A stretch of 64,000 bases of DNA from the NCBI GenBank assembly GCA_965227295.1, contig OZ245742.1, positions 3,328,001-3,392,000 of the forward strand, written 5' to 3'. The translations under genes and the position numbers were made by a program. The notes under the pieces were generated by a model. It did not search any database and was not told where the DNA came from. It saw nothing but the letters and a program-made list of their open reading frames with translations. Source of the DNA: Leptonemataceae bacterium (lineage in GTDB: Bacteria; Spirochaetota; Leptospiria; Leptospirales; Leptonemataceae). Positions 4,190-36,762 of the stretch are shown here, piece after piece (positions within the stretch are counted from its first letter, which is position 1; the number at the start of each line of letters is the position of its first letter).

Positions 4190-4194
4190 GAAAG

Positions 4195-14710: not shown

Positions 14711-14735
14711 GATCCGGCGCGTTGTCCTGATGGAC

Positions 14736-14875
14736 GTTGAGGGGGTAGCGGAGGACCGAAAGCCCACCGGCAGGGCTGCCCGGAGGGTGGCCCGGTCGCC
14801 GCAGGCGAGCCGGTGGGCGGTCGCGCGTAGCGCGATTCGGGCCGGAGCGAGGGGGAGCGAAGCTCCCCCCTTAAC
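14736..14875. repeat. GC-rich multi-hairpin intergenic element (REP/BIME-like)
   Basis: Terminal inverted repeats GTTGAGGGGGTAGC / GCTCCCCCCTTAAC; internal stems CCCACCGG..CCGGTGGG, TCGCC-GCA-GGCGA, CGCGC-GTA-GCGCG and GGAGC-GAA-GCTCC. Confidence 0.6.
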
Positions 14876-14885
14876 ATATTCTTTC

Positions 14886-16942: not shown

Positions 16943-17015
16943 GTTGAAATAGACTACCGGAATCCGGGCGCGGTTCGCGGAAAAATTGTAAAAAATGTCG
17001 CGAATCCGCACCGAT

Positions 17016-17392
17016 GCTGGTTCTTTACGGCGAAGACGCCGTTCCGGTGCGCCGTACCACATTGCCCGGCATAACCTCCGTTCATCTGCTGGAACCAGCC
17101 GTGACCATAAAAGTGTAAATCCAGACTGGCCGCGACGTACACCACGATTCGGGGCGTGCTCGAATGCATGAAAAATTTCCGGTAGATCAAGAGCCTTGTT
17201 TCGTGGCGTTTGCCGTGAGACACATGAAGTAAGTTGCGGAATTGAGAAGTGGTTTTTTATGCTACGGCTCGCAGGAGTTGTGGAATTTCGTTTTGTTAAG
17301 AGGGTCCGCCTCGACCCGGACGTCGGTTTGCGACTCAGCTACCGTAGCGATTCTTACGGCGAAGACGGGCGAACGTGAGTTCGTGCTCGAAC
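17016..17392. repeat. Long degenerate repeat, array 1 (one full 329-bp unit plus start of the next)
   Basis: GAAGACG anchors at 17032 and 17361; colinear with 18550-18881. Confidence 0.9.
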
Positions 17393-17407
17393 TCATCGGA
17401 CGCATCG

Positions 17408-18340
17408 TCAAAGTAACGGTGTGCTTTCGGTTTCACCCGGCGGGCGTGTGTGCCAGCGTCGGTGCAGCCAGAAGTAATCCTGCGGGTGCTGCTTAACTTT
17501 TTCTTCGAGCATGTTAACCCAGGTCTTTGTAAAGACCGCGTCCCAGGCCTCCGGATCGGGGCGATGATCGAAGTCCGGGCGGGGAAACTCCTGGATCTCG
17601 TAGACCAGGCGGTCCTGCTCGTCGTGGTAGGACCAGAGAAAGTACAGCGGGGCGTCGGACAAACGCGCGAAGGCGGCCGGTCCCTGGAACGTGGACGCCG
17701 GGCGGCCGAAGAAGTCGATGAACTTGCCGTTCTTACCGGCGTCCTGATCGGCGATGAATCCGATGACGGCCTTTTGTTTAAGAAGTTTTAAGATTCGCCG
17801 CGGGCTTTCGTCCGTGTAGATGAGCCGGATGTCCTGGGAGCCGCGCATGCGTTCGATCCAGGCGTTGGACCAGGGGTTCGATTGACGTTTCGCAAGCACG
17901 AATAAATCGCCGCCGTTGCGCGTGATGGCCACACCCTTCCACTCCCAGTTCCCCAGGTGACCGAGAATCAAAATGCCGCCGTCGGCATAGATGCGCCGGT
18001 GAGTCTCCGCGTCCGGTTTGAGGACGAACCACTTTTCGAGAAAGTCGTCGTCGACGAACGGGTTCTGCAAGAACTCGGCGCCCATGCGCCCCAGAATGCG
18101 AAAGTGTTTGGTTGCGATGTCTCGCCGCCAGGCCTCGCTCTCGTTCGGGAAGGCCAGTTGCAAATGATTGCCCACGCGCTGCCGCGCTTCTCCGGCCAGG
18201 CGGCCGAAGATCAGTGACAGGTTCTGGAGCAAACGTGCCCGCCAGGGGAACGGCAAACGCATGAGCAAGAACGTGAGCGTCCGGGATACCGAGTACTCCA
18301 GGAATTTTATGAATGTCTTTTGGTATCGCTTCCGCGCCAT
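17408..18340 (-). CDS. Lipid A biosynthesis lauroyl/acyltransferase (HtrB/LpxL family)
   Basis: GHLGNWE catalytic HxxxxE motif, FIADQD, FIDFFGRPAST, PQDYFWLHRRW. Confidence 0.9.
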   Translation of the reverse strand: MARKRYQKTFIKFLEYSVSRTLTFLLMRLPFPWRARLLQNLSLIFGRLAGEARQRVGNHLQLAFPNESEAWRRDIATKHFRILGRMGAEFLQNPFVDDDFLEKWFVLKPDAETHRRIYADGGILILGHLGNWEWKGVAITRNGGDLFVLAKRQSNPWSNAWIERMRGSQDIRLIYTDESPRRILKLLKQKAVIGFIADQDAGKNGKFIDFFGRPASTFQGPAAFARLSDAPLYFLWSYHDEQDRLVYEIQEFPRPDFDHRPDPEAWDAVFTKTWVNMLEEKVKQHPQDYFWLHRRWHTRPPGETESTPLL

Positions 18341-18390
18341 GATCGCGAGCGAATGTATATTCCGCGGGAGACACGTCAAGCAATCTGTTG

Positions 18391-19053
18391 GCTGGATCTT
18401 TACGAAGAAGACGCCGTTCCGGTGCGCCGTACCACAAGCCCCGGCACGACCTCCGTGGGTGGGGAACAACTGCCGCGGCCCCAACAAGTGGGGCCTTGCC
18501 GACACCGGACGTCGGTTTGCGACTCAACTACCGTAGCGTTTCTTCCGACGAAGACGCCGTTCCGGTGCGCGCCCCACATTTCCCCGGCATGACCTCCGTG
18601 GTCGCCTGGAACCAGCTGTACCCATACAAGGCTTAATGTACACTGGCCGCTACTTACATCACGATTCGGGGTGTGCTCGAACGAATGAAACGTTTCCGGT
18701 AGTTCAAGAGCTGCGGTTTGGTGCGTTTGCCGTGATAAACAGAAAGTAAGTCGGCAAACGTTAAAGGAAATCTTTTTATGCTACGGCGAAGCGGGAGTTG
18801 TGGATTTTCGTTTTGTTAAGAATGCTGCGTTCGACCCGGACGCTGATTGTGCGACTCAGCTACCGAGGCGATTCTTGCGACGAAGACGCCGTTCCGGTGC
18901 GCCTTACCATGCTCCCCGGCATGACCTCCGTGGGTGGGGAACAACTGCCGCGGCCACGACAAGCGTGGCCTTGCCCCTGGAACCAGCCGTACCCATAAAA
19001 GCCTTAATCCAAACTGGCCTCAACTTACACCACGATTCGGGGCGTGCGCGAAC
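18391..19053. repeat. Long degenerate repeat, array 2 (143-bp short unit, 332-bp unit, partial unit)
   Basis: GAAGACGCCGTTCCGGTGCGC anchors at 18407, 18550 and 18882. Confidence 0.9.
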
Positions 19054-19065
19054 CACAGCCAGGCC

Positions 19066-21105
19066 TCACGAGACGCCCACGGTCTGCCCGGTCACGGCGT
19101 CGGCGGTCCAGCCGAGTTCGCGGGCTTTCTCGCGAGCCTGCTTCGGAATGTCCGCGGCAATCAGGTTGCGGTGCAGAATCTGAACGCCCAGCAGGTGATT
19201 GATGACCGCGTCCAGTTGCACCAGGGTCGCCGCGGGGGTGTCCGGAGAATCGTGGAGCGCAAAGAGCGAACGCACGCCGTCCAGGTCCAGGATGCCGGCG
19301 TCTTTGATCGCAGCGTCGCTAAGGTAATCTTGTGCTAAGTTACGCATGGCCTGCATCTTCGTTTCGTCCGTGTGGGCCGGCGGGGCCATGAAGGCGAACT
19401 TCTCGCGTTCGTAGAGCACGCGCGGCAGCACGCCCTTCATGGCTTCGCGCAGGACGTACTTTTCAATGCGGTTTTTGATGCGATACTCCGGCGGGATCGT
19501 CGCGGCGGCCTCGGCCAGGTGATGATCCAGAAACGCCGGCCGGGCTTCCATGGAGTTCGCCATGTCCACACGGTCGCCGCCCCAGGTCAGGATCTGACCC
19601 TCGAGCATGGTCTTGATCCAGACGTACTGCGCCGCGTCCAGCGGATGGCGATTGCGTAACTGTTCTCCGTCCAGGGCCGCGGCGATGGCCTCGCCGGGTT
19701 TGTAGCCGTTCAGTTCGCCGCGCATGTCGCCGTGCATGAGGGCCGGCACGCGGGAGGACGCGGCGAGCCAGGGTTGCAGACACGACGGCGTGAATCCCAC
19801 GAGAGAACTGAGGGCGGGATCGTCGATCTCGTCTTCGGCGAGCATGGCGCCGCTGAAGAGTTTGTTGGATTCGTCGAGCATGCGTTGCCATTCCGCGCGA
19901 TCGCCCTCGGGCAGTTCGTGCAGGCCGTGCATGAACATGTCCCGGCGAAAGCTAGGATAACCGGCGAAGAGTTCGTCGGAACCCTCACCGGTGACCACGA
20001 CCTTGTAGCCGGTGTTGTGGACGTGACGCGACATGAGCAGTTTTGCCACGCCCAGGGTGTTGTAGATCGTACGTTCGGTGTGCCAGTGGGTTTCCACGAA
20101 GTTGTCGTAGAGATGGTCGGCGTCGAGCATCATGATGTCGTGGTCCGCATCCACCGCGGCGGCCATCTGCTTCGCAATGCCGCTTTCATCGTAGGCGTCG
20201 TTATCGAAGCCGATGGTGAAAGCCTTCACCGGATCCTGGCGGTGCGCCGCGGCCAGGCCCAGAATCGAGCAGGAGTCGATGCCGCCGGACAGATAACAAC
20301 CCACCGGGACGTCGGCCACTAATCGTAACTGAATGGCTTCTAAGAGCTTCTCGCGAACGAGGTCGACGTAGTATTCCTCGGATTTCATTTCCCGGCCGCC
20401 GCGCTCCGGGAAGGGCATGTCCCAGTAGGGGCGTTCGCTGATTTCGAATTGGCCGTTGCGGCGTTTGACGGTGACCAGGGTGGCCGGTTTCACCTGCTCC
20501 ACCCCGGCGTAGGGGGTCGAGCCCGGTACGATGGTCTGCATGAGCTGGTGGTACACGCCCCGGGCGTGGAAACGCCGCGGCGCCTCGGGATGAGCGAAGA
20601 TGGACTTGATTTCGGAGCCGAAGATTAAGGTCTTTTTGTCGTCACTTAAGGCGTAGTACATCGGCTTAATGCCGAAGCGGTCCCGGACCATGTAGAGGGT
20701 GTCGTTCTCGCGATCGAAGAGGGAGAACGAGAACTCGCCGCGCAGGTACGGCAGCATGCCGTCGATGCCGTAGCGCGGATACAGGTGCAGCAGAATCTCG
20801 GAGTCGCTCTTGGTGCGAAAGCGTGCGCCGCGAGCGGTGAGATCGGCGCGGATGCGCTGGAAGTCGTAGAACTCACCGTTGTGGGCGATCAGCAGCTTGT
20901 TGTCCTCCGAGACGAAGGGCTGCTGGGCCGTGTGCGCGAGGTCGATGATCGAGAGGCGCGCGTGAGAGAAACCCACGCCGTCCATGATCTGATAACCGTA
21001 GCCGTCCGGTCCGCGGTGCCACTGGATGGCGGCCTGAGCGACCAGGGTCTCCGGATCGACCGGTTTGTTTTTATCGGCGTGAATGAAACCTGAAATTCCG
21101 CACAT
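19066..21105 (-). CDS. asnB: Asparagine synthase (glutamine-hydrolysing)-family amidotransferase
   Basis: N-terminal nucleophile MCGISG, HRGPD, HNGEFY, PP-loop LSGGIDS, TGEGSDELFAGY. Confidence 0.92.
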   Translation of the reverse strand: MCGISGFIHADKNKPVDPETLVAQAAIQWHRGPDGYGYQIMDGVGFSHARLSIIDLAHTAQQPFVSEDNKLLIAHNGEFYDFQRIRADLTARGARFRTKSDSEILLHLYPRYGIDGMLPYLRGEFSFSLFDRENDTLYMVRDRFGIKPMYYALSDDKKTLIFGSEIKSIFAHPEAPRRFHARGVYHQLMQTIVPGSTPYAGVEQVKPATLVTVKRRNGQFEISERPYWDMPFPERGGREMKSEEYYVDLVREKLLEAIQLRLVADVPVGCYLSGGIDSCSILGLAAAHRQDPVKAFTIGFDNDAYDESGIAKQMAAAVDADHDIMMLDADHLYDNFVETHWHTERTIYNTLGVAKLLMSRHVHNTGYKVVVTGEGSDELFAGYPSFRRDMFMHGLHELPEGDRAEWQRMLDESNKLFSGAMLAEDEIDDPALSSLVGFTPSCLQPWLAASSRVPALMHGDMRGELNGYKPGEAIAAALDGEQLRNRHPLDAAQYVWIKTMLEGQILTWGGDRVDMANSMEARPAFLDHHLAEAAATIPPEYRIKNRIEKYVLREAMKGVLPRVLYEREKFAFMAPPAHTDETKMQAMRNLAQDYLSDAAIKDAGILDLDGVRSLFALHDSPDTPAATLVQLDAVINHLLGVQILHRNLIAADIPKQAREKARELGWTADAVTGQTVGVS

Positions 21106-21188
21106 AGTATTGAGTATCCTTTCGTTGATTCTTTGCTTGCTGCGCTTTTCGTTAAACTACTTACGAAAACACGCCGCGACCAGTGCGC

Positions 21189-21962
21189 TCAATTTGCGCC
21201 CTGGTGTTGCATGCGCGGCGGCATGCCCTTCGGCGGGCCGAGCTGGGACTCCACTTCCCGGATGCCCTCGGCCGTGCTGAGAATGCGCGCGTACCGATCC
21301 CGCAGGCCGGCGATGGTAAACTCCTGCAATTGTGAAGTTACCGTGGTGCACGCATCGTCGATGACCGTCACGAGATAACCTATGTCACAGGCGTCCCGAA
21401 CGGTGGTGGAGACGCATTCGTTGGTGTAGACGCCGGTGACGAAGAGGGCGTCGATCTCCATGTTTTTTAAGATGTAGTTCAGATTCGTCGAAGAAAAAAC
21501 ACCGCTGGCGGTCTTGTTGATGATGAGTTCATCGCCTTCCGGTTCGACCGCTTCCAGGAATTCCGCTTCTTTGCTGCCCGGGGCCGCGTGCAGACCCAGG
21601 CGTTTGTGGCCGGCGCTGCGATCCCGACCGTCCATGGTCAGCGACTGAATGCGCGTGTGGATCACTTCCAGGCCGTGGGTGCGGAAACAATCCTGGAGGC
21701 GCCGTACGTTCGGCAGTACCGTGTGTTTCAACGAGTCGAAGTAGTAGCGTTGTGCTTCCGGCGGTACGCCCGAGGCCGCCGCGTCCTTAAAGACGCCGTA
21801 GCCCTCGGCGGCGTCCAGGTACTGCAGGTCGATGCACAGCAGCGCCGTATGATAGCGACGAATGGCGGCACGACGCTCCGGAACGTTCGCGATGGTTTCG
21901 CGATAGCTCTTCTTGAGCGGATCGAGGTTTTCGTTTTCGGGGTTATCGACGACTGTGCTCAT
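21189..21962 (-). CDS. Isochorismatase-family cysteine hydrolase (amidase)
   Basis: Asp-Lys-Cys triad in ALLCIDLQ, INKTASGVF and GVYTNECV; AAGGATAGGGA ribosome-binding site upstream of ATG 21962. Confidence 0.9.
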   Translation of the reverse strand: MSTVVDNPENENLDPLKKSYRETIANVPERRAAIRRYHTALLCIDLQYLDAAEGYGVFKDAAASGVPPEAQRYYFDSLKHTVLPNVRRLQDCFRTHGLEVIHTRIQSLTMDGRDRSAGHKRLGLHAAPGSKEAEFLEAVEPEGDELIINKTASGVFSSTNLNYILKNMEIDALFVTGVYTNECVSTTVRDACDIGYLVTVIDDACTTVTSQLQEFTIAGLRDRYARILSTAEGIREVESQLGPPKGMPPRMQHQGAN

Positions 21963-21976
21963 ATCCCTATCCTTTT

Positions 21977-22086
21977 GCCACAGAGGCACAGAGAACACAG
22001 AGAAGAAAGTTTTGGGGAGCAGGCGGCGTATGATCGGAGGGCCCACCATCCCTTAAAAAACTCTGTGTCCTCTGTGCCTCTGTGGC
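21977..22086. repeat. Short element with 26-bp terminal inverted repeats (CACAGAG-type)
   Basis: GCCACAGAGGCACAGAGAACACAGAG ... CTCTGTGTCCTCTGTGCCTCTGTGGC (25 of 26 positions complementary). Confidence 0.85.
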
Positions 22087-22093
22087 CAATGGT

Positions 22094-23350
22094 TTACCCG
22101 GCCTCCGCCAGTTTCAAGAGTGTGTTCAACGCCACGTTCGCTCCCGCTTCGATGTCCTCCCAGTGCGTCCACTCGCGCGAGCTGTGCGAGCGCCCGTCTT
22201 TACTGGGCACGAAGATCATACCCATGGGCGTGATGCGCGCCATGATCTGGGCGTCGTGCACGGCGCCGCTCGGCATGTTGTGTGTTTTTAAATTCAGTTC
22301 GCCGGCGGTTTGCTGGATGGCCTGGACGATGGACGGTTCGCAGGGCACGGGCTTGACCTCGCTCAGTACGTCGAATTCGAACATGAGGTCCCGGCGCCGG
22401 GCGATGGCCGAGAGCGCGCGGCGGTACGCGTCGGATAAATCACGGAGGACATCTTCGCTGGTATCCCGAACATCCAGGGAAAACTCCACGTTGCCGGGGA
22501 CGGTGTTCGCCGTGCCCGGGAAGAGATGCACCCGGCCGATCGTCGAGACCGAGTTCTCCGCGCCGTGCTCTTCTAAAATGCGCGGGATCTCCGTAGAAAA
22601 TTCCGCGAGACCACCCAGGGCGTCGCGGCGCATGCGCATGGGCGTGGTGCCGGCATGATCCGCCGCCCCGATCAATCGTACGTTCCACTTAAAGAGACCG
22701 GTGATGTTCTCAACGACGCCGATGGGGATGCTCGTACTGTCCAGGACCGGCCCCTGTTCGATGTGCAGTTCCAGGTAACAACGTAACGTATCCGGATGTC
22801 GCCGGGCGCGCAGGGCGTCCATAACGTCCAGGCCCTGTTGTTTCATGGCTTCTTCCAGGCGCAGGCCGTCGAGATCGGCGGCGGTCTTCAGCCGTTTCGG
22901 GTTTACGTCGCCGACCAGGGACTGCGAACCGAGCAGACCGCCGAAGCGACCTTCTTCGTCGCTGAAGGCCACCATCTCCAGGCCGTACTTCGTTTGAATG
23001 TTTTGCTCGCGGATGCACCGCAGGCATTCCAGCGCGGTGAGTACGCCGAGGGCGCCGTCCAGGTGACCGGCCGCGGGGACCGTATCGATGTGCGAGCCCA
23101 TGAGAACCGAGGGCCGGCCTTCGGCGCAGTTGACCTTGCCGAAGAGATTCGCCGCTCCGTCCTGTTCGAAGTCCAGGCCGCCGTCTTCGATGCGGGCCTT
23201 GAGCCAGGCGCGGGCTTCCATGTCCCCGGGCGTAAAGGCCATGCGATAGATGCCGTGGTCGTCCTCGGACGCTCCGATCTTCGCGAGCTCGTTGATGTCG
23301 CGTTTGAGGCGATCGAAGTTGATTTTCAGTTGGCTGAGGGTCGCGGTCAT
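22094..23350 (-). CDS. Zn-dependent M20 amidohydrolase, N-carbamoyl-L-amino-acid hydrolase/allantoate amidohydrolase family
   Basis: GSHIDTV, HLDGALG, DEEG, ELHIEQGP, DHAGTTPM, SGAVHDA and SHS motifs; start at MTATLSQL. Confidence 0.93.
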   Translation of the reverse strand: MTATLSQLKINFDRLKRDINELAKIGASEDDHGIYRMAFTPGDMEARAWLKARIEDGGLDFEQDGAANLFGKVNCAEGRPSVLMGSHIDTVPAAGHLDGALGVLTALECLRCIREQNIQTKYGLEMVAFSDEEGRFGGLLGSQSLVGDVNPKRLKTAADLDGLRLEEAMKQQGLDVMDALRARRHPDTLRCYLELHIEQGPVLDSTSIPIGVVENITGLFKWNVRLIGAADHAGTTPMRMRRDALGGLAEFSTEIPRILEEHGAENSVSTIGRVHLFPGTANTVPGNVEFSLDVRDTSEDVLRDLSDAYRRALSAIARRRDLMFEFDVLSEVKPVPCEPSIVQAIQQTAGELNLKTHNMPSGAVHDAQIMARITPMGMIFVPSKDGRSHSSREWTHWEDIEAGANVALNTLLKLAEAG

Positions 23351-23391
23351 GGCTGGCTCCGGTGGTGTTATTAAGATATGTGCATCTGATG

Positions 23392-24498
23392 TTAGTTGCC
23401 GTTCTCTTCCGTATGCGGCTGCGGTGCCACGTCGATTACCTGGTTGATGCGCTGAGTAAGGCAGGTGAGCAGCGCCATGCGGGCGAAGACGGCTCCCCGG
23501 GCCTGGGCGAAGTACCAGTTGTGTTCCGTGTCGTCCAGGCTGACGTCCAGTTCCTCGCCCCGGGCCAGGGGGTGCAGAACTACGGCGCCGTCTTTCAACG
23601 GCGAACTCCCGGAGAGTTTGATGTCGCCGGTCAGAGTCTCGTAGGTTTCCCCGACCCAGGCGATGGAGTTGATGTAAACCACGTCCAGTTCCGGCAGGAC
23701 CTCTTTCAGGCGCTTTTCCACGCGCACGTTCAGCCCCTCGGCCTCGAGTTCCTCTTTCTGACCCTCGTCGAAGATGTTTTCCCGCGGGTTGATGACCACC
23801 ACCTCGTGGACGGCGTCCTTGATGAGCGTGAACATCAGCAACAGGCTGCGCACCGTACGCATGCGGCCGGGAGTGCCGATCACGCCGATGCGAATCTTTC
23901 GATCTTCCGGGAGCTTGCCGTCGCAGAGGTCCGGCCGCCACTTGAAGAGCGTGTACATATCCGCCAGGGCCTGGGTGGGATGTTCGTCGATGCCGTTCCC
24001 CGCGTTGATGATGGGAATGCGCAGCGCGGACAGCATGGTGTACACGGAGTCGTCGCGGTTGTCGCGCAGGACCATGACGTCGCCGTAGTTGCTGAACATT
24101 TCGGCGACGTCGTGCAGGGATTCGCCCTTGGCCATGCCGGTGGTGGCCGGGTCCGTGATGGACATGATGTCCCCGCCCAGTCGATGCCAGGCGCTTTCGA
24201 AGGAGATGCGCGTGCGCGTGCTGGGTTCGTAGAATGCGCTGATCATCAGTTTGCCGGCGAGGGGTTTGTACATCAGCCGGGGCCGGCATTCGTAGCTCGC
24301 GGCCAGGCGACAGATTTGCACCAGGGCGGACAGATCGAACTGGCGCGCCGAGACGATGTGATGGTTCGCCAGTTTCTGCAAATGCTCCGGCTTTTCGCTG
24401 ACGTGTTCGACGAGCGCCGCCGGACGTTCGATGCCGTTGACGCCGTCGCGGACTTCCACGGGTTGCGTTAGAAGGGGGTGTAGTTTATCTCGCAGCAT
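23392..24498 (-). CDS. Aspartate-carbamoyltransferase-like carbamoyltransferase (PyrB paralog with altered acceptor site)
   Basis: FYEPSTRT, KGESL, INAGNG..EHPTQ and LHPLAR present; YINSIAWVG replaces the canonical YxTRxQxER. Confidence 0.88.
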   Translation of the reverse strand: MLRDKLHPLLTQPVEVRDGVNGIERPAALVEHVSEKPEHLQKLANHHIVSARQFDLSALVQICRLAASYECRPRLMYKPLAGKLMISAFYEPSTRTRISFESAWHRLGGDIMSITDPATTGMAKGESLHDVAEMFSNYGDVMVLRDNRDDSVYTMLSALRIPIINAGNGIDEHPTQALADMYTLFKWRPDLCDGKLPEDRKIRIGVIGTPGRMRTVRSLLLMFTLIKDAVHEVVVINPRENIFDEGQKEELEAEGLNVRVEKRLKEVLPELDVVYINSIAWVGETYETLTGDIKLSGSSPLKDGAVVLHPLARGEELDVSLDDTEHNWYFAQARGAVFARMALLTCLTQRINQVIDVAPQPHTEENGN

Positions 24499-24517
24499 AG
24501 AGTTTGTTAGATTACGT

Positions 24518-24640
24518 TTACCAGATCTTACCGGAGCGCCAGTCCCGAATGAAGATCACCAGCAGCGAAATCGGTGCCGTCGCGGCGACCAGCAGGGCCG
24601 CGGTTACCAGTATGGAAAGAAACGTTACGGATACGATCAT
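24518..24640 (-). CDS. 40-aa single-pass membrane peptide
   Basis: MIVSVTFLSILVTAALLVAATAPISLLVIFIRDWRSGKIW; its ATG overlaps the symporter stop (ATGA). Confidence 0.7.
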   Translation of the reverse strand: MIVSVTFLSILVTAALLVAATAPISLLVIFIRDWRSGKIW

Positions 24641-26094
24641 AACGTGGTACCTCCGGCCTGGACCTCGGCGTCGTGGCTTTCCTGTAAGTCTTTCCAGTCG
24701 AACTCCCGCGGCGCGATGAGCGTAAAACCGACGGTGCACACCATGGAAACAACGGCACCGACGAGGGCCGCGGTGTACCAGCCGATCATGTCGTACGAAA
24801 CCAGGCCCAGCACACTGCCCAGCACCATGCCGAGCAAGGCGCCGGTGGGATTCGTCTTGCGCCAGTAGAGTCCCGCCGCCACCGGCCAGATGGTGGAGGC
24901 CACGAAAGAGCCGGTGAAGTGCAGGATCTTTCCGAGGGTGTCGATGTTCGGCAACGAAACGAGCCAGGTGAGCAGACCCAGGCCGACGATGACGAACGAA
25001 CCCGCGCGGCGCAGGTGTTGTTGCGAAGCGCCGGGGTTGAGATGTTTGCGATAGATGTCTTCGAGGATGAGATCCGACGTCGCGGCGAGCAGCGAGTCCA
25101 GCGACGAGGCCAGGGCCGAGAAGACGATGATGAACACGATGACCGCGCCGGCGGTGCCGAGAAGATTCGCCGCGATCATGGGGCCGACCATGTCCGAGCG
25201 CGGTACGTTCAGCCCGATGACCGGCGCGGCCAGCGCCACGAAACCCGCGGCGATGGGGATCGGCGTCCAGAAGATGCCGGCTAACAGATACGCCTTGAAG
25301 CCGACGCCTTCACCGAAAGCGAAGGCCCGGGACCACCAGACGTTCGAATGAAAGATTTCCCCCATACCGAAGAGCAGGTTGTTGAACAGAAACATCATCG
25401 CCGCCGGCATGAGCAGGTTCAGCAGTTCGGGCCGCTCCGAGGAGAGTTGCATGTGCATGTCTTCGAAGCCGACACGACTGATCGTCAAAAAGCCGAGGAT
25501 CACAATGCCCGTGATGATGATGACCGTTTGAATGAAGTCCGTGCCGATGACCGCGCGCAAACCGCCGAGCAGGGTATACACGACGCAGATACCCAGGATC
25601 ACCGACATGCCGAGGTGGTAGGGTAATCCGGAGAGGGCGTGGATGAGAACACCGCCGGCCATGGCCAGGCTCACGAGCCAGCCCATGCTGTAGACGAGAC
25701 TAATTAGAAGAAAAACGCGCCAGGCCCAGACCCCGTAGCGCAGGCGAATGAAATCGCCGCTGGTGTAGCCGGCCGGCATGAGCCGACGGATGCGTGCGGC
25801 CATGGGGGCGAAGAGGATCAAGCCCACACTGCCCAGGCTGTAGCCGATCATGCCCCAGATGCCGAGCTCGTACGCGAACTGCGGGGCGACCATGGTCGTG
25901 GATGCGGTGACCCAGGTGGCCATGGCCGTGGCCGTGCCGAGGGCCAGGCCCACCCGGCGACCGGCGAGCATGAAATCGTCGAGGGCGTCCTGGCCGCGCC
26001 CCCACCACCAGCCCAGGAAAATCCAGAGCACGCTGAAGGCGGCGAGCAAAGCGCCGGCCACATAAGGATCTAAGATAGCATCGTTAACATTCAT
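24637..26094 (-). CDS. Sodium:solute symporter family transporter (Dur3/urea-transporter-like)
   Basis: FMLAGRRVG, WVTASTT, YTLLGGLRAVIGTDFIQ, FSALASSLDSLL; about 13 TM segments. Confidence 0.9.
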   Translation of the reverse strand: MNVNDAILDPYVAGALLAAFSVLWIFLGWWWGRGQDALDDFMLAGRRVGLALGTATAMATWVTASTTMVAPQFAYELGIWGMIGYSLGSVGLILFAPMAARIRRLMPAGYTSGDFIRLRYGVWAWRVFLLISLVYSMGWLVSLAMAGGVLIHALSGLPYHLGMSVILGICVVYTLLGGLRAVIGTDFIQTVIIITGIVILGFLTISRVGFEDMHMQLSSERPELLNLLMPAAMMFLFNNLLFGMGEIFHSNVWWSRAFAFGEGVGFKAYLLAGIFWTPIPIAAGFVALAAPVIGLNVPRSDMVGPMIAANLLGTAGAVIVFIIVFSALASSLDSLLAATSDLILEDIYRKHLNPGASQQHLRRAGSFVIVGLGLLTWLVSLPNIDTLGKILHFTGSFVASTIWPVAAGLYWRKTNPTGALLGMVLGSVLGLVSYDMIGWYTAALVGAVVSMVCTVGFTLIAPREFDWKDLQESHDAEVQAGGTTL

Positions 26095-26112
26095 GAAAAT
26101 AAAACTTGCGGA

Positions 26113-26580
26113 TTAACTTTTGCGTCGCTCGCGCATCCAGCCGCTGAGAATCATGGCGGCGGTGGCCAGAAAGACCAGGGCCCCGGTGATGAGAAACGAG
26201 AAGGCGCGCTCGAGGGAATGGTGTTCCACGGTGACGCTCAGAGTTTCGCTCCAGGGCGTTCGGGTTCCGTCGCCGCGCTCCACGTGCACGCGATAATAGT
26301 ACGTGCCGTCGGCTTTGCCGCTGATGGTCGTGCCGCTGTCTTTGCCGTCGTAGACCTGACGGCGTTCGCCCTGGACGAAGTCCGGGGTGGGGGCTTCTTC
26401 GACGTAGAAAGATGCGAAGTCGCCGGAAGGCGCGGCCCAGTTCAGTGAATAGTAACCGCCGGTGGATTTCTGTTCCAGATCGCCGTCCCAGACCGGGGCC
26501 GATCCGTCCTGCGCGCCCAAGGGCAGCGTGAAGAGCAGGGCCGCGGCCGTGACTGCGAAACAGCGGATGCTTGCTAACAT
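26113..26580 (-). CDS. Exported fibronectin-type-III-like domain protein with C-terminal TM anchor
   Basis: Signal peptide; YSLNW...YVEE...GTYYYRV...PWSE Fn3 pattern; hydrophobic C-terminus followed by RERRKS. Confidence 0.7.
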   Translation of the reverse strand: MLASIRCFAVTAAALLFTLPLGAQDGSAPVWDGDLEQKSTGGYYSLNWAAPSGDFASFYVEEAPTPDFVQGERRQVYDGKDSGTTISGKADGTYYYRVHVERGDGTRTPWSETLSVTVEHHSLERAFSFLITGALVFLATAAMILSGWMRERRKS

Positions 26581-26605
26581 TGTGTGAGTATAAGTTACGA
26601 TGCCG

Positions 26606-26938
26606 CTACTCCGTTTTTTTTACAGGCTCCCTGCCGATTTCGATCATCTGCTCGACCGGGATGACCAGGATTTTGCCGTCGGCTTCGTTGTCCGTGCGGG
26701 CGATGTCCTGGATGAGCCGGGTGATGTTTTCCACCTGGTCGTCGTTGATCATCATCATGACCATGGTGCGCGCGTCGGAGTCCACGGCGTACTCGGTGCC
26801 GCGATAGAATTCCTGAAAGTTCGAACCGGCGGACTCGTGAATGGGTACGAAGCGAAGGTCGGAAACGCCGGCTTCGAGCAGGGCGTCTTTGAGTGCGTCG
26901 AGTTTGAACGGCTTAACGTAGGCTTCGATTTTTTTCAT
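26606..26938 (-). CDS. Divergent P-II family nitrogen regulatory protein
   Basis: MKKIEAYVKPFKLD..KDAL, T-loop YRGTEY, DGKILVIPVE. Confidence 0.85.
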   Translation of the reverse strand: MKKIEAYVKPFKLDALKDALLEAGVSDLRFVPIHESAGSNFQEFYRGTEYAVDSDARTMVMMMINDDQVENITRLIQDIARTDNEADGKILVIPVEQMIEIGREPVKKTE

Positions 26939-27072
26939 GAGGTTGGCGCCGCCAGCATACACGCCGTTTGAAACAGGCGCAGATTGCCGCGAATATAGGC
27001 ATATTCAGGCTGCCCGGCAAGAGGAAGCGCATGACAGAATGTCGCACGCGCCAATACTGTCAAGGAGTGTTC

Positions 27073-30000
27073 TCAGCCGATTAACTTGCGCAATTTCTCA
27101 AGATCGCGATCCTCGGGATCAATCTTTGCTGCGGCCTCGGCGGTGGAGCGCGCGAGATCGGTGTCGCCCTGTAGTCGATGCAAATCGGCGAGATTGATCA
27201 GGTTCTTTACGTTCTCGGGTTCCATGGAACGCAGGCGTTCGGCGGCGCGCAGGGCCTCGGAATAGTTGCCGCGTTTTTTTTCGGCGAGGGATAGATAGAT
27301 CCAGAACTCGGAGAGGCGCGGGTCTTCGGTGAGATACTTGCTCAGCAGCTCCACGGCCTTTTCGTAGTCCTGTCCCTTGAAGCTTAACAGTCCCAATAGT
27401 TTGTTCAATCGCGAATGGGCCTGATCAATTTGATAGGCCTCGTTCAGAACGTTGATGGCCTGGCGCAGGTTGCCTTCCAGGTAGAGTTGTTTGCCGCGTT
27501 CCAGGAGTTCGTCGAAGGCCAGGTCGCCGCGGTGCCGACTGCTATCGTAGTCGCCGGCGTTTTCGTCCAGATCAACGTCATCGCCGTTCAAACGCGGGCG
27601 AACGCTGGCCGCCAGGTTTTCTTCGAAGCGTTCTTCGAGGGCCGACGCTTCCACGCCGCTTTCCTGAAAGCCGATGCGCAACAACGAAAGGTCGTCGGTT
27701 AGTTCGCCGTGATCACGCAACGCGCGTTCGATGTGATGCAGTTCCGTACCGACTTCCTGAACGACGCGCAGGAACAGAAACTCATCTTCGTTGATGTCGC
27801 GCTTTTCGGCGTTCGGAGTAAGGTTGATGTCGTCGCGGCCGTCGGATCCCATGAGCACGACGTCGCCGGGCTGCAGTTGAAAGCGAAAGACCTGAAACTG
27901 GAACTCGGAGTCCAGGCCGAGCTTGCGCAAATTGAGACCTTCTTCAATGAAACTGGTCTGCCCGTTGCGCCACAACAGCGTTTGCGGATGTTCGGCGTTG
28001 AAGTACAACGATTCGCCGGTTTGATCGTTCACCAGCCACACCACGCACGAAATCACCATGGAACCGTCGAAGGTCTTAAACACGCCGTGGATTTCATCGT
28101 AGAGATCCTTGAGCCATTGCTCCGGGCTGACCTCCAGCACGCGTCCGCCGGAAGCCGAGCGGGCCATGATCGAATTCATGACGACGCCCATTACCAGCGA
28201 ACCGCCCGCGCCCTGCATGGACTTGCCCATGGCGTCGCCGTTCATGCCCATGGTCCAGCGCTCGAAGGGGCCGCGGGGATCGTTCGGCGCGGCGTCGTTG
28301 CGATTGCTGTCCGGGCCCGGGCGGAACTTCAGGTTGCCGGTCACGCAAATGTCGCCGCCCAGGTCGCCCTCGCGCTCGCGAAACTCGAAGCGTTTCTTCT
28401 GGCGGATGATAAAATCCGTTGAGATGAACTTAGACTTGTTGGCATTGAAGAAGAGCGGTTTCGCGAGCAGCGAGGTGAGGAAGTAGTCGCCGTCCTGCTG
28501 GACCTTAAGCCGCTGCACCTCTTCCATCTTTTCCCGGACTTCGCGAGTGCGTTCTTCGACTTTCTCTTCGAGGTTTTCGGCGTAGTCCTGGAGTTTGATC
28601 CGGGCGTCGCGAATGGAGCGGACCATGGAATTGAACGAGCCCGCCAGGTAACCGATCTCGTCCTGAACCTTGATGGGCACCTGTACGTCGAAGTCGCCGT
28701 TGTTTACTTCTTTTACGCCGCCGAGTAAATCGTTGAGCGGCTTGACCAGAGACGAACGGAAGAACAGCGGAAAGATGAACAGAATGGCGAACGAAGACAC
28801 GAGGATCGTGTATACGAGGCGTTTGCCGGTGGTGTGAATGTAGGCGCGATAATCTTTGTACGAAAAGCCGACCTCGTAGCGTCTGCCGCCCGCCTCGAAG
28901 TCGAAGTGCGTGTAGTACAGCGCCGCGTCGCGATAGAGGCGGGTGAGCAGGGGCTGCGTTTCGGTCTGGATGTTCACCGTGGCCCGGGCCGCGGCTTCCT
29001 CGGGACCGAGATCGACGAACTCCTTCTGAAGTTTCGCCGCCTCCACCGGTACGCGGCGGGCGAGCATGCGCTCTTCGCCGGCCTTCACGCGTTGCAGAGA
29101 GAACACGGCGTCGCGTTCGTAGTGCAACTCGTAGGCGGCGCCGACGGCAGGGGCCGCCGCCGAGCGGGAGATGACGTAGGCGACGGACTCCGGTAGATCA
29201 TTGAACTCACCGCGCAGGATGGAGCTGCGAGAGTTTTTGACTTCGGCCAGGCGTTCGCGGTCGTAAGACGCCTCGTTCAACGTAAGTGTGATGTTGCTTA
29301 CGATGCCGAGGACGAGCAGCAACGTTACCAGGGAAATGCCCACGAGCTTTACCATGAAGGTCGTCGGCTCCGGGGAGTTGTTCATGTAGGCCATGAACAT
29401 ACCGAAGAGCGCCAGGATCGAACCGATGGAGTAGAGGTACGCGTAGACCTCGTTCGAAACGAGGCCGGCCTTGTTCAGCGCGTTCGCGATGCCCACGCCG
29501 ATCAGCAACAGAATCGCCACCGCGAAGCTGCGGGTGGCCACGGCGTCGCGTCCCTTCGGAAACAAAAGGATCACCGGACCCACGAGCAGGCGCGCCCCGA
29601 TAAACGAAAACAAGCGCGGCGAGAACAAAGACGGCGGACGTTTCACCGCATCACTCAGAAAACCTTCGTAGTGCGAGTGGCGAATGGTCTTGCGCAGAAA
29701 GATGAAGAGCGACCAGGTGAACAACGAGAGGATCGTGACGGCGACGATTTGACCGGGAACGGCGGCGTCCAGGTTGTAGTAGTGCGCGGGAAAGACGTAG
29801 AACGTGTCGCCGCCGAAGGTGGCCTGCACGAAGTATGCGTAGACGGAGACGGCGGCCACGGCACCGAGGCTGACCATGACCACGCTCTCTTTCGGATGAT
29901 CGTTGCGCGGGTAATTGTACGCGAACAGCATCAACGAAACCTGGCTGAAGAGCACGCTCACCGTGAGATAGCGATGGTAGGCGGCGAACTCGTCGAAGAC

Positions 30001-30183: not shown

Positions 30184-30264
30184 AAGTGATGAATCATCAT
30201 CCGGCAGGGCCGCAGAGCAACCACAAAACACTTGAGGTGCTCCGCACAATCATCAGTATGCCGC

Positions 30265-36614: not shown

Positions 36615-36762
36615 GCAACAAGCACGATTTGCACGGAGGGGTTTCGTGCAAGTGTTTTATTGTGAACGGTTTCTGTTCTACGTAGTACGTAACAGAATTC
36701 TGACAATCGTCGCGAGTATTTTGATTGAGTTTGCTCGGATCGTCGCGCTTAAAAAAGATAAC

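What the first reader, a model, noticed from the sequence alone, without database searches (positions are those of the whole stretch)
19066..26938. Candidate pathway for an N-carbamoyl amino-acid amide (e.g. the osmolyte N-alpha-carbamoyl-L-glutamine 1-amide): synthesis, uptake, breakdown and PII control in one cluster
Seen: eight co-oriented, closely spaced genes encoding a PII-like protein, an Fn3 membrane protein, a Dur3-like symporter, a 40-aa peptide, a carbamoyltransferase, an M20 carbamoylase, an isochorismatase-family amidase and an AsnB amidotransferase. No pyrC, pyrI or car genes are adjacent. Known: AsnB paralogs amidate carboxyl groups of non-aspartate substrates (AsnO in NAGGN osmolyte synthesis). 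M20 carbamoylases remove N-carbamoyl groups and isochorismatase-family enzymes cleave amides or ureides. N-alpha-carbamoyl-L-glutamine 1-amide is a reported compatible solute of Ectothiorhodospira marismortui; I know of no assigned genes for it. Inference: the two synthetic enzymes (add carbamoyl, add amide) are mirrored by two hydrolases (remove carbamoyl, remove amide) plus an importer, which fits a nitrogen-rich osmolyte or N-storage compound. The product identity is a hypothesis.
Basis: partly seen in the sequence, partly recalled or inferred. Interest (0 to 1): 0.88.

Follow-up and report, generated by a model that had tools for sequence, protein, structure and literature searches.

The report
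Gene cluster for carbamoyl-amino-acid amide solute
Eight neighbouring genes, kept together in bacteria from several phyla, look like a kit to make, re-import and break down a small uncharged nitrogen-rich solute, possibly the salt-protecting compound carbamoyl-glutamine amide, whose genes have never been identified.

Summary
Eight co-oriented minus-strand genes (19066-26938) encode a PII-like protein, an Fn3 single-pass membrane protein, a DUR3-like symporter, a 40-aa membrane peptide, an ATCase-like carbamoyltransferase, an M20 L-carbamoylase, an isochorismatase-type cysteine amidase and an AsnB-type amidotransferase.

- **Conservation:** the core (symporter, peptide, carbamoyltransferase, AsnB) recurs in 31 loci from Spirochaetota, Planctomycetota, Rhodothermaceae, Gamma- and Alphaproteobacteria. 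AsnB is present in 29 of 31; the other two end at a contig edge. The two hydrolases and PII are optional.
- **Not PyrB:** the transferase keeps the carbamoyl-phosphate site and the alpha-carboxylate ligands. It replaces the ATCase RxQxER motif, which holds aspartate's beta-carboxylate, with YIN[SA]IAW in 186 of 186 relatives.
- **Best reading (about 0.5):** cap the amino group, amidate the carboxyl, re-import, and optionally reverse both steps.
- **Product:** N-alpha-carbamoyl-glutamine 1-amide is plausible (about 0.3). Orthologues occur in Ectothiorhodospiraceae, but the known producer could not be checked.
- **Literature:** no paper in the searched library assigns genes to this compound.

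No chemistry was tested.

The parts
26606..26938 (-). PII-like signal protein (110 aa), divergent from GlnB/GlnK
   Evidence: Pfam P-II scores 51.9 bits against a cut-off of 25. The GlnB equivalog NF008111 scores 60.7 against a cut-off of 202. The best PDB relative is a P-II protein at 76.5 bits. In that alignment the base of the T-loop, the position of the conserved Lys that follows it, and part of the B-loop differ. A PII-like gene adjoins the cluster in 10 of 31 loci.
26113..26580 (-). 155-aa membrane protein: N-terminal signal-like helix, Fn3-type sandwich, C-terminal transmembrane helix preceded by a conserved His-His
   Evidence: No Pfam family was found. The AF2 model has pLDDT 90.3 and pTM 0.74. 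The top PDB fold matches are Fn3 domains, E about 1e-5. H119 and H120 are nearly invariant in 24 sequences. The family is present in 23 of 31 loci.
24637..26094 (-). Sodium/solute symporter family transporter, DUR3-like (485 aa)
   Evidence: Pfam SSF scores 106 bits. The best solved relatives are DUR3 urea-proton symporters at 125 bits; SGLT1 scores 55. It is present in 29 of 31 loci. Mean column identity is 70% over 27 sequences.
24518..24640 (-). 40-aa single-helix membrane peptide ending in a conserved RDW+xGxLW tail, translationally coupled to the symporter
   Evidence: Its start overlaps the symporter stop by 4 nt. tblastn finds it in 21 loci. A small-ORF scan adds six more, giving 27 of the 29 loci that have the symporter. 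No Pfam family was found.
23392..24498 (-). ATCase-branch carbamoyltransferase that is not an aspartate carbamoyltransferase (368 aa)
   Evidence: Pfam finds OTCace_N and OTCace. It scores below the cut-off of all 17 NCBIfam ATCase, OTCase, PTCase and YgeW models; the best is 186 bits against 237. Aligned to solved ATCases, TRIQKER becomes NSIAWV-G and HPLPR becomes HPLAR. The STRTR, KGES, HPTQ and MRTVRS residues and the motifs YIN[SA]IAW and HPLAR are invariant or nearly so in 186 family sequences.
22094..23350 (-). M20 N-carbamoyl-L-amino-acid amidohydrolase (418 aa)
   Evidence: TIGR01879 (hydantoinase/carbamoylase family) scores 382 bits, above its cut-off of 204. NF006771 scores 530, above 399. 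ErtE (N-carbamyl-L-glutamate amidohydrolase) scores 389, below 520. AllC scores 285, below 598. The best solved relative is N-carbamoyl-L-amino acid hydrolase 3N5F at 279 bits; allantoate amidohydrolase scores 205. It is present in 18 of 31 loci.
21971..22092 (-). Long hairpin in the 131-nt gap between the M20 and amidase genes (possible processing, attenuation or stability element; role unknown)
   Evidence: The inverted-repeat arms are 32 nt long and 91% complementary. The RNA fold has MFE -67.6 kcal/mol and z = -5.6, with 0 of 200 shuffles as stable. It gives only sub-threshold Rfam matches to miRNA-precursor hairpins. The arm sequence occurs nowhere else in the window.
21189..21962 (-). 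Isochorismatase-family cysteine amidohydrolase (257 aa)
   Evidence: Pfam Isochorismatase scores 111 bits. The closest solved relatives are named cysteine hydrolase, biuret hydrolase, N-carbamoylsarcosine amidohydrolase and RutB. The D (IDxQ), K (NKT) and C (TNECV) positions are conserved in the window protein and 13 orthologues. It is present in 14 of 31 loci (one only as a fragment at a contig start), always together with the M20 gene wherever the contig reaches far enough.
19066..21105 (-). AsnB-type glutamine-dependent amidotransferase (679 aa)
   Evidence: TIGR01536 scores 410 bits, above its cut-off of 267. AsnO of NAGGN (TIGR03104) scores 302, below 570. E. coli-type AsnB (NF006949) scores 265, below 499. 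It has the N-terminal MCG and the LSGGIDS PP-loop. The best solved relative is a hydroxyamidotransferase (7YLZ) at 148 bits. It lies next to the transferase in 29 of 31 loci.

Best explanation
The cluster is a self-contained module for a small, uncharged, nitrogen-rich solute of the type N-carbamoyl-L-amino-acid 1-amide. [quoted passage not shown]

Inferred steps:
1. The ATCase-like enzyme transfers the carbamoyl group of carbamoyl phosphate to the alpha-amino group of a neutral L-amino acid that still has a free alpha-carboxylate (glutamine in the favoured case).
2. The AsnB-type enzyme adenylates that carboxylate and amidates it with ammonia taken from glutamine. Both charges are then masked.
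3. A three-part transporter takes the compound up or recaptures what leaks out. It consists of the DUR3-like symporter, the 40-aa peptide and the Fn3 single-pass protein.
4. Where present, the cysteine amidase re-opens the 1-amide. The M20 L-carbamoylase then removes the carbamoyl group and returns the amino acid plus ammonia and CO2.
5. Where present, the divergent PII-like protein couples uptake or synthesis to nitrogen or energy status.

Shown here: the gene content, its conservation, the family assignments, and the loss of the aspartate beta-carboxylate site in the transferase.

Inferred: the substrates, the order of steps, the osmolyte role, the assembly of the transporter and the target of PII.

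Confidence is about 0.5 for this class of product and about 0.3 for the glutamine compound specifically.
For: 1. Conserved core.
- 31 loci carry a transferase orthologue at 54-78% identity.
- AsnB lies beside it in 29 of 31. The two exceptions, L001 and L007, end 1024 and 27 nt after the transferase.
- The symporter is present in 29 of 31. It is missing at a contig edge in L019 and truly absent in L023, which keeps only the transferase and AsnB.
- Clustering all ORFs of the loci found no further conserved family. In particular there is no carbamate kinase, pyrI or pyrC.

2. The loci come from several phyla.
- Record titles name Leptospiraceae, Planctomycetota, Rhodothermaceae, many Gammaproteobacteria and Hyphomicrobiaceae.
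- Over 22 loci the three core proteins stay at least 50% identical, and their pairwise identities co-vary with rho 0.53-0.85.

3. The transferase is not PyrB.
- A review of the family states that RxQxER occurs in all known ATCases, that R229 and Q231 anchor aspartate's beta-carboxyl, and that R167 and K84 position the alpha-carboxyl (PMC4581275, passages read).
- In the window protein the CP site and the R167 and K84 equivalents are kept, but RxQxER is replaced by YIN[SA]IAW[VI]G in 186 of 186 family sequences.
- 81 of 117 library representatives carry RxQ plus HPLP. A FastTree places the window protein in a 24-row set with local support 100, apart from them.

4. The two synthetic steps match the chemistry that defines this solute class. 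[quoted passage not shown]

5. The hydrolases fit the reverse steps.
- The M20 enzyme is closest to a solved N-carbamoyl-L-amino acid hydrolase.
- Its best substrate-specific NCBIfam model is N-carbamyl-L-glutamate amidohydrolase.
- The nearest characterised relatives of the amidase act on ureido-amide compounds: biuret hydrolase, N-carbamoylsarcosine amidase and RutB.

6. Distribution.
- Orthologues are named in Ectothiorhodospira lacustris, E. magna, Thiorhodospira sibirica, Thioalkalivibrio, Thiohalobacter, Thiohalophilus and Nitrosococcus oceani.
- The whole cluster is present in an Ectothiorhodospiraceae MAG, L026.
- PMC7824335 (section 3.1.10 read) reports that E. magna lacks betaine and ectoine synthesis. 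[quoted passage not shown]

7. Precedent. The NAGGN operon combines an AsnB paralogue, an N-capping enzyme and a co-transcribed predicted peptidase (PMC8070244, passages read).
Against: - No metabolite or enzyme activity was tested. The amino-acid substrate is inferred only from the loss of the beta-carboxylate ligands.
- The known producer, E. marismortui, could not be examined. Its name and that of E. mobilis do not appear in any of the three hit lists: 120 of 3429, 120 of 1424 and 120 of 4450. This is uninformative, because only the best 120 rows are shown and most carry no name, but it gives no support.
- In the window and in the gammaproteobacterial arrangement the synthetic and hydrolytic genes are co-oriented with short gaps. 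Co-expression would give two futile cycles unless there is further control.
- An importer bound this tightly to the enzymes (29 of 30 loci with room for it) is more typical of uptake or catabolic operons than of biosynthetic ones.
- The M20 protein also passes an NCBIfam subfamily model named allantoate amidohydrolase (530 bits, cut-off 399).
- Several hosts are not evidently halophiles, for example Leptospiraceae and Acidobacteriota MAGs and a Leptospira isolate. The habitat of the window's organism is unknown.
- PII is absent from most loci, so 'PII control' is a lineage feature.
Confidence: 0.5

Rival explanations
1. Uptake and catabolism of an external ureido compound (allantoate, ureidoglycine or another N-carbamoyl compound) as a nitrogen or energy source. 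In this reading the transferase runs phosphorolytically, like ureidoglycine, putrescine or catabolic ornithine transcarbamylases. The two hydrolases release ammonia, and the DUR3-like protein is the importer.
For: - The importer is almost always present (29 of 31) and is DUR3-like.
- The M20 protein passes the 'allantoate amidohydrolase' subfamily model NF006771.
- Relatives of the amidase hydrolyse biuret, triuret-type substrates and ureidoacrylate.
- UGTCase lies in the ATCase branch and is listed with Ser at the position that corresponds to R229 (PMC4581275).
- Reviews expect further catabolic transcarbamylases (PMC6022934, passages read).
Against: - An ATP- and glutamine-consuming AsnB-type amidotransferase is the most constant partner (29 of 31), and it has no role in such a route.
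- The hydrolases are the optional parts (18 and 14 of 31).
- No carbamate kinase or other catabolic gene is conserved.
- The family carries HPLA, not the H(T/S)LP motif that characterises UGTCase.
- The M20 protein is closer to L-carbamoylase than to allantoate amidohydrolase (279 against 205 bits).
- Carriers include chemolithoautotrophs such as Nitrosococcus oceani and Thioalkalivibrio. Their lifestyle is recalled, not taken from a call.
Confidence: 0.13
2. The same enzymatic logic but a different product or role. The product could be an N-carbamoyl amide of another neutral amino acid (Asn, Ala, Ser, Gly), or the compound could serve mainly as a nitrogen store or carrier rather than an osmolyte.
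For: - The active-site evidence only excludes a beta-carboxylate side chain.
- PII-like genes in 10 loci point to nitrogen status.
- One planctomycete locus has a Peptidase_S51 protein (the family of cyanophycinase, recalled) next to the cluster.
- Some carriers are not obviously halophilic.
Against: - The only natural compound of this class found in the literature searches is the glutamine derivative.
- The best substrate-specific model for the M20 enzyme is the N-carbamyl-L-glutamate enzyme.
- Many named carriers are marine or haloalkaliphilic. Their habitat is recalled.
Confidence: 0.2
3. An ordinary pyrimidine or asparagine housekeeping neighbourhood: the transferase is PyrB and the amidotransferase is the cell's asparagine synthetase, with the other genes there by chance.
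For: Public sources name the orthologues 'aspartate carbamoyltransferase' and 'asparagine synthase'. TIGR01536 is passed.
Against: - The RxQxER motif is absent in 186 of 186 relatives.
- The protein scores below every PyrB equivalog cut-off.
- No pyrI or pyrC is nearby.
- The gene set is conserved as a unit across phyla.
- Some sources already name the orthologues only 'aspartate/ornithine carbamoyltransferase family protein'.
Confidence: 0.02
4. The carbamoyl group is a transient protecting group, as acetyl is in arginine synthesis. In this reading all four enzymes act in one line to make a free amino-acid amide or a related product.
For: In the window the four enzyme genes lie in one co-oriented string. 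That arrangement argues for joint expression.
Against: At least five loci with several kb on both sides have the transferase and AsnB but no hydrolase (L002, L008, L010, L017, L023). The pair is therefore sufficient on its own. L-carbamoylases are known to need a free alpha-carboxylate (recalled).
Confidence: 0.05

Closest known systems
NAGGN (N-acetylglutaminylglutamine amide) pathway: Ngg plus AsnO, with a co-transcribed peptidase (PA3459-PA3461)
   Same: The logic is the same: cap the alpha-amino group, then let an AsnB paralogue amidate the terminal alpha-carboxylate with glutamine nitrogen to give an uncharged solute. That operon also carries a hydrolase gene (PMC8070244, passages read).
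   Different: The amidotransferase scores below the AsnO equivalog cut-off (302 against 570). There is no ngg gene. A dedicated importer is part of the cluster.
Aspartate carbamoyltransferase (PyrB)
   Same: It has the same fold and the same carbamoyl-phosphate site (STRTR, KGES, HPTQ). The ligands of the alpha-carboxylate, equivalent to R167 and K84, are kept.
   Different: RxQxER is replaced by YIN[SA]IAW and HPLP by HPLA. The protein has about 45 extra N-terminal residues. It scores below all PyrB cut-offs, and there is no pyrI or pyrC nearby.
Ureidoglycine transcarbamylase (UGTCase) and other catabolic transcarbamylases
   Same: It is an ATCase-branch enzyme annotated as a 'pseudo ATCase', with Ser at the position of R229 (PMC4581275).
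   Different: The H(T/S)LP motif and the listed Lys are absent. There is no carbamate kinase or purine-catabolic context, and the gene is paired with an anabolic amidotransferase.
N-carbamoyl-L-amino-acid amidohydrolases (hydantoin utilisation; ErtE of ergothioneine breakdown)
   Same: The M20 protein passes the family model TIGR01879. It aligns end to end with the solved L-carbamoylase 3N5F and with the ErtE model.
   Different: It scores below the ErtE equivalog cut-off. No hydantoinase or racemase is nearby.
Isochorismatase-like cysteine hydrolases for ureido-amides (biuret hydrolase BiuH, N-carbamoylsarcosine amidase, RutB)
   Same: It has the same fold and the D-K-C positions. These relatives hydrolyse a terminal amide or ureido group next to a ureido nitrogen.
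   Different: It scores far below the BiuH and RutB cut-offs (69.5 against 370; 45 against 378). It has an N-terminal extension of about 75 residues that is conserved in the family.
DUR3 urea symporters, and PII-transporter pairs such as GlnK-AmtB and SbtB-SbtA (the pairs are recalled)
   Same: The symporter's closest solved relatives are DUR3 proteins. In 10 loci a PII-family gene sits directly upstream of the transporter genes.
   Different: There is no urease or urea amidolyase in the cluster. Two small accessory membrane proteins accompany the symporter. The PII protein scores below the GlnB/GlnK cut-offs and its T-loop base is altered.

Membership tests
Aspartate carbamoyltransferase (PyrB) | Carbamoyl-phosphate site (S-T-R-T-R, R105, H-P-x-Q) | tested here: met
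   EPSTRTR, VLR and EHPTQ are invariant in 186 of 186 family sequences.
Aspartate carbamoyltransferase (PyrB) | RxQxER motif of the 240s loop (R229 and Q231 hold aspartate's beta-carboxyl; PMC4581275) | tested here: not met
   The motif is replaced by N-[SA]-I-A-W-[VI]-G in 186 of 186.
Aspartate carbamoyltransferase (PyrB) | Score above a curated PyrB equivalog cut-off | tested here: not met
   TIGR00670 scores 186 against 237. NF002032 scores 179 against 263. All 17 transcarbamylase models are below cut-off.
Aspartate carbamoyltransferase (PyrB) | It is the genome's pyrimidine enzyme (no other pyrB in the host) | not testable with these tools
   Only 64 kb of the host is available. No second OTCace protein was found among the 53 window ORFs scanned.
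Ureidoglycine transcarbamylase (UGTCase) | H(T/S)LP motif (PMC4581275) | tested here: not met
   The family has HPLA in 186 of 186. The motif is as quoted.
Ureidoglycine transcarbamylase (UGTCase) | Purine-catabolic context with carbamate kinase | tested here: not met
   No such family is conserved in the 31 loci.
AsnB-type (class II) glutamine amidotransferase / asparagine synthase family | N-terminal catalytic Cys, SGGxDS PP-loop, family model passed | tested here: met
   The protein has an MCG start and LSGGIDS. TIGR01536 scores 410, above 267.
AsnO of the NAGGN pathway | Equivalog score and an adjacent ngg gene | tested here: not met
   TIGR03104 scores 302 against 570. No GNAT or ngg family is present in the loci.
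Asparagine synthetase B in the strict sense (makes asparagine) | Aspartate as the acyl substrate | not testable with these tools
   NF006949 scores 265 against 499. The substrate-binding residues could not be aligned reliably.
M20 hydantoinase/carbamoylase amidase family | Family model passed; end-to-end match to a solved L-carbamoylase | tested here: met
   TIGR01879 scores 382, above 204. 3N5F scores 279 bits over residues 12-416.
Allantoate amidohydrolase / deiminase (AllC) | Equivalog score | tested here: inconclusive
   The subfamily model NF006771 is passed (530, above 399), but the AllC equivalog TIGR03176 is not (285 against 598), nor are NF006768 and NF006775.
Isochorismatase-like cysteine hydrolase | Pfam model passed and Asp-Lys-Cys triad (triad recalled) | tested here: met
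   PF00857 scores 111, above 27. IDxQ, NKT and TNECV are conserved in the window protein and 13 orthologues.
Biuret hydrolase BiuH / RutB | Equivalog score | tested here: not met
   The scores are 69.5 against 370 and 44.8 against 378.
DUR3 urea symporter | Transports urea; linked to urea catabolism | tested here: inconclusive
   DUR3 proteins are the closest solved relatives (125 bits, two stretches). No urease or amidolyase is in the cluster. No curated DUR3 model was available.
PII (GlnB/GlnK) | PII fold model; curated GlnB/GlnK score; canonical T-loop and ligand residues | tested here: inconclusive
   Pfam is passed at 51.9, above 25. The equivalogs are not passed, at 60.7 against 202 and 53.4 against 181. 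The T-loop base and the Lys after it are changed, while YRGxEY and DGKI are kept.
Fibronectin type III domain | Seven-strand sandwich fold | tested here: met
   The model has pLDDT 90.3 with seven strands. The top PDB matches are Fn3 domains with target TM-scores of 0.54-0.78. No Pfam fn3 sequence match was found.

The most novel reading that the evidence does not exclude
[quoted passage not shown] In that case:
- Its transferase is the first glutamine (neutral amino acid) N-carbamoyltransferase.
- Its AsnB paralogue is an alpha-carboxyl amidase-in-reverse for a carbamoylated amino acid.
- The DUR3-like symporter with two small subunits is the dedicated importer.

The transferase family has more than 1400 close homologues (E <= 1e-100). 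Carriers include marine and soda-lake sulfur oxidisers, a marine nitrifier, planctomycetes, Rhodothermaceae and spirochaetes. If the reading holds, carbamoyl-amide solutes would be a widespread, overlooked, nitrogen-costly class of compatible solute rather than a curiosity of one phototroph.
Probability: 0.3. Interest if true: 0.85.

Novelty: new variant of a known kind. Interest (0 to 1): 0.7.

Why it matters
- **Orphan solute:** carbamoyl-glutamine amide is listed among bacterial osmolytes in a 2005 review (PMC1224877; its first description around 1991 is recalled). No genes are assigned to it in the library searched. A conserved, portable gene set makes the question directly testable by co-expressing two genes.
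- **Enzyme families:** it would add a new substrate class to the transcarbamylase family and a second osmolyte-amidating AsnB paralogue.
- **Transport:** it would give a function to bacterial 'DUR3-like' transporters that occur without urease.
- **Ecology:** it would allow the solute to be predicted from genomes and metagenomes of saline habitats. This bears on nitrogen budgets, because the compound carries four nitrogen atoms.
- **Annotation:** it would correct a systematic mis-annotation. Hundreds of these proteins are named aspartate carbamoyltransferase.

Tried and rejected
- **Cluster members:** I asked for the members of ten transferase clusters to see whether E. marismortui or E. mobilis were hidden in them. 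The question stays open.
- **Complex prediction:** the job paired the symporter (alignment A2) with the Fn3 protein (A1, residues 25-154). It was never accepted. That the three membrane proteins form one transporter therefore rests on synteny and translational coupling alone.
- **Riboswitch:** an Rfam scan of 17000-31000 found nothing above threshold, only hairpin-like sub-threshold matches. I therefore rejected a riboswitch as a clue to the ligand.
- **Promoters and terminators:** the scan gave no more sites than shuffled sequence.
- **Plasmid search:** a search with the transferase found only one distant canonical pyrB.
- **Salt-response data:** a literature search for salt-response data on these genes found nothing. 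One search was a term-syntax error.
- **Other literature searches:** two searches for the ATCase residue roles found nothing before one search found the review. One search gave no paper that assigns such a cluster.
- **Recent acquisition:** I rejected recent horizontal acquisition into this host. The GC content of the genes (0.56-0.63) matches the window (0.606), and close relatives L003 and L004 share the flanking genes.
- **Upstream phosphatase:** I rejected the SpoIIE/HAMP/TPR phosphatase as part of the system. It is conserved only in the two closest relatives.

Full report
**What is there**

The region 19066-26938 holds eight genes, all on the minus strand.

They are a PII-family protein, an SSS symporter, an OTCace-fold carbamoyltransferase, an M20 amidohydrolase, an isochorismatase-family hydrolase and an AsnB-type amidotransferase.
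- The M20 gene is 22094-23350 (418 aa). The 731-aa ORF in the list is an over-extension across the transferase gene.
- The isochorismatase gene most likely starts at 21962, because 13 orthologues begin there.
- The 155-aa protein has no Pfam family. It folds with high confidence (pLDDT 90.3) into an N-terminal helix, a seven-strand sandwich and a C-terminal helix. Its best PDB matches are Fn3 domains.
- The symporter's closest solved relatives are DUR3 urea symporters, at 125 bits against 55 for SGLT1.
- The 40-aa peptide starts 4 nt before the symporter's stop.
- Gaps between genes are 25, 18, -4, 19, 41, 131 and 83 nt.
- Among the 53 window ORFs scanned there is no pyrI, pyrC or carAB and no second transcarbamylase.

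**Conservation**

A scan of one genome per species with the transferase returned 31 loci at 54-78% identity. They were mapped with tblastn.

| Gene | Loci of 31 | Comment |
|---|---|---|
| AsnB-type | 29 | Next to the transferase. L001 and L007 end 1024 and 27 nt after it. |
| Symporter | 29 | L019 is a 1.4-kb contig. L023 truly lacks it and keeps only the transferase and AsnB. |
| Fn3 protein | 23 |. |
| 40-aa peptide | 27 of the 29 loci with the symporter |. |
| M20 | 18 | |
| Cysteine amidase | 14 | One (L022) only as a fragment at the contig start. Always with the M20 gene where the contig reaches far enough. |
| PII-like, adjacent | 10 | An eleventh PII hit, in L014, is a distant canonical gene. 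|

- All-against-all clustering of every ORF in the loci found no other recurrent family.
- There are three arrangements:
  - The window's order, with the hydrolases between the transferase and AsnB (Leptospirales).
  - Fn3, M20, amidase, symporter, peptide, transferase, AsnB (eight Gammaproteobacteria and one spirochaete MAG).
  - A form without hydrolases (Planctomycetota and others).
- The loci come from Leptospiraceae, other Spirochaetia, Planctomycetota, Rhodothermaceae and Hyphomicrobiaceae. They also come from many Gammaproteobacteria: Ectothiorhodospiraceae, Thioalkalivibrionaceae, Thiohalobacter, Thiogranum, Thiohalomonadales, Woeseiaceae, Glaciecola and Cellvibrionaceae.
- Across 22 loci the three core proteins never fall below about 50% identity, and their pairwise identities co-vary with rho 0.53-0.85. 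The pairs are not independent, so this is only supporting evidence.
- L003 and L004 (Leptospirales) share the flanking genes as well, which places the window in that order.

**The transferase is not PyrB**

- It scores below the cut-off of every NCBIfam transcarbamylase model; the best is 186 against 237.
- Aligned to solved ATCases it keeps the carbamoyl-phosphate site. The loop that reads TRIQKER in ATCases reads NSIAWV-G, and HPLPR reads HPLAR.
- In 186 family sequences, all stored hits, the following are invariant or nearly so: STRTR, A-K-G-E, H-P-T-Q, M-R-T-V-R-S, Y-I-N-[SA]-I-A-W and H-P-L-A-R.
- The family review PMC4581275 (passages read) states four relevant points:
[quoted passage not shown] - R167 and K84 position the alpha-carboxyl.
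  - UGTCase is marked by H(T/S)LP.
- The window enzyme therefore keeps what binds carbamoyl phosphate and an alpha-carboxylate. It lacks what binds a beta-carboxylate, and it lacks the UGTCase motif.
- In a search of 1.84 billion representatives the family collapses to one full-length representative (59% identity, 432 bits). A few sister groups at 42-46% also carry HPLA.
- Of the 151 rows (the window protein plus 150 listed hits), 117 of 290-480 aa were kept. Of these, 81 have RxQ plus HPLP and 8 have HPLA. A FastTree puts the window protein in a 24-row set (local support 100) apart from canonical ATCases. This was a quick tree with no bootstrap.

**The other enzymes**

- AsnB-type protein: it has the catalytic N-terminal Cys and the PP-loop. 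It passes the general asparagine-synthase model but not the AsnO or E. coli AsnB equivalogs. Its best solved relative is a hydroxyamidotransferase.
- M20 protein:
  - It passes the hydantoinase/carbamoylase family model.
  - It is closest to a solved N-carbamoyl-L-amino acid hydrolase, at 279 bits against 205 for allantoate amidohydrolase.
  - Its best substrate-specific model is N-carbamyl-L-glutamate amidohydrolase ErtE, though below cut-off.
  - It also passes a subfamily model named allantoate amidohydrolase.
- Isochorismatase-family protein: it keeps the Asp, Lys and Cys positions. Its nearest characterised relatives act on ureido-amides: biuret hydrolase, N-carbamoylsarcosine amidohydrolase and RutB.
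- PII-like protein: it has the full fold but altered ligand and T-loop-base residues, and it fails the GlnB/GlnK cut-offs.

**Interpretation**

Two constant enzymes remain: one that carbamoylates an alpha-amino group and one that amidates a carboxylate. A neutral amino acid has only one free carboxylate, so the product would be an N-carbamoyl amino-acid 1-amide.

[quoted passage not shown] NAGGN synthesis uses an AsnB paralogue for the final amidation, and its operon also carries a predicted peptidase (PMC8070244, passages read).

The optional hydrolases fit the reverse route, amide first and then carbamoyl group. A DUR3-like importer fits a urea-like substrate. These steps are inferred, and none was tested.

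**Link to Ectothiorhodospira**

- Transferase orthologues are named in E. lacustris, E. magna, an Ectothiorhodospira MAG and Thiorhodospira sibirica. Further named carriers are Thioalkalivibrio nitratireducens, Nitrosococcus oceani, Thiohalobacter, Thiohalophilus and others.
- AsnB-type orthologues are named in E. marina, unclassified Ectothiorhodospira and Thioalkalivibrio sulfidiphilus.
- Five transferase/AsnB hit pairs share the same longest-contig length. This is compatible with one contig each but is weak evidence.
- A genome survey of phototrophs (PMC7824335, section 3.1.10 read) makes three relevant statements:
  - E. magna lacks betaine and ectoine synthesis.
  - Carbamoyl-glutamine amide is a candidate solute.
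  Both organisms carry the transferase.
- The known producer, E. marismortui, could not be checked. The lists show only the best 120 rows, mostly unnamed.

**Points against**

- Synthetic and hydrolytic genes are co-oriented with short gaps, which would cause futile cycling without extra control.
- The importer is bound to the enzymes more tightly than is usual for biosynthetic operons.
- The M20 protein passes an allantoate-amidohydrolase subfamily model.
- Several carriers are not evidently halophiles.
- PII is a minority feature.

The main rival is catabolism of an imported ureido compound with a phosphorolytic transferase. It is weakened by four facts:
- AsnB is constant.
- The hydrolases are optional.
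- No carbamate kinase is conserved.
- The UGTCase motif is missing.

**Novelty**

- Four searches for the compound returned three papers in all, and none assigns genes.
- Passages of two reviews of the transcarbamylase family, retrieved with the terms (2015 and 2018), name no glutamine-type member.
- Supplements were not consulted. Papers outside the library may exist.
- I rate the finding as a new variant of a known kind: osmolyte-type charge masking built from known enzyme families.
- Confidence is 0.5 for the compound class and about 0.3 for the specific compound.

Noticed in passing
window 21971-22092: A 26-bp perfect stem (32-nt arms, CACAGAG-type repeats) sits in the gap between the M20 and amidase genes. 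MFE is -67.6 kcal/mol and z = -5.6. It is unique in the window and matches only miRNA-precursor hairpins below threshold in Rfam. It could be a processing, attenuation or stability site that uncouples the genes on either side.
   Followed up: partly
L023:10001-13087: A Chromatiales MAG carries only the transferase and AsnB pair, with no symporter, Fn3 protein or hydrolases within 10 kb on either side. This is the minimal form of the system.
   Followed up: partly
representative library hits P0315, P0319, P0320, P0323-P0330, P0334, P0335, P0338, P0362: These are proteins of about 355 aa, 30-42% identical to the window transferase, with the same N-terminal extension. They lack the STRTR, KGES and HPL motifs, so they may be non-catalytic or differently catalytic relatives. 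In a quick tree they group with the HPLA clade.
   Followed up: no
L015:7604-7948 versus window 26606-26938: The PII gene beside the cluster in L015 has a canonical T-loop (GFGRQKG...). The other nine adjacent PII-like genes share the divergent form seen in the window.
   Followed up: no
L008:5509-7191 (minus strand): A Peptidase_S51 protein with two domain matches lies just upstream of the planctomycete cluster on the opposite strand. S51 is the family of cyanophycinase (recalled). It may be another nitrogen-reserve link or a coincidence.
   Followed up: no
window 27073-30249 and 36499-39276: Two large SpoIIE/PP2C-type phosphatases are present. One has HAMP and TPR domains directly upstream of the cluster and is conserved there only in L003 and L004. 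The other has a 7TMR-DISM sensor domain.
   Followed up: partly
window 2413-5175 (minus strand): A complete TRAP transporter (DctP, DctQ, DctM) lies about 14 kb from the cluster. Its substrate is unknown.
   Followed up: no
window 14577-16277 (+): A 566-aa protein carries a Leptospira-type N-terminal domain (NF047433). This is consistent with a Leptospirales origin of the window despite its 60% GC.
   Followed up: no
PMC12625717 (passages read): That study reports DUR3 genes in nine MAGs of a lineage in which urease was absent from all 51 MAGs. This is another hint that some bacterial 'DUR3' transporters carry something other than urea. Whether those genes sit in this cluster was not checked.
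   Followed up: no
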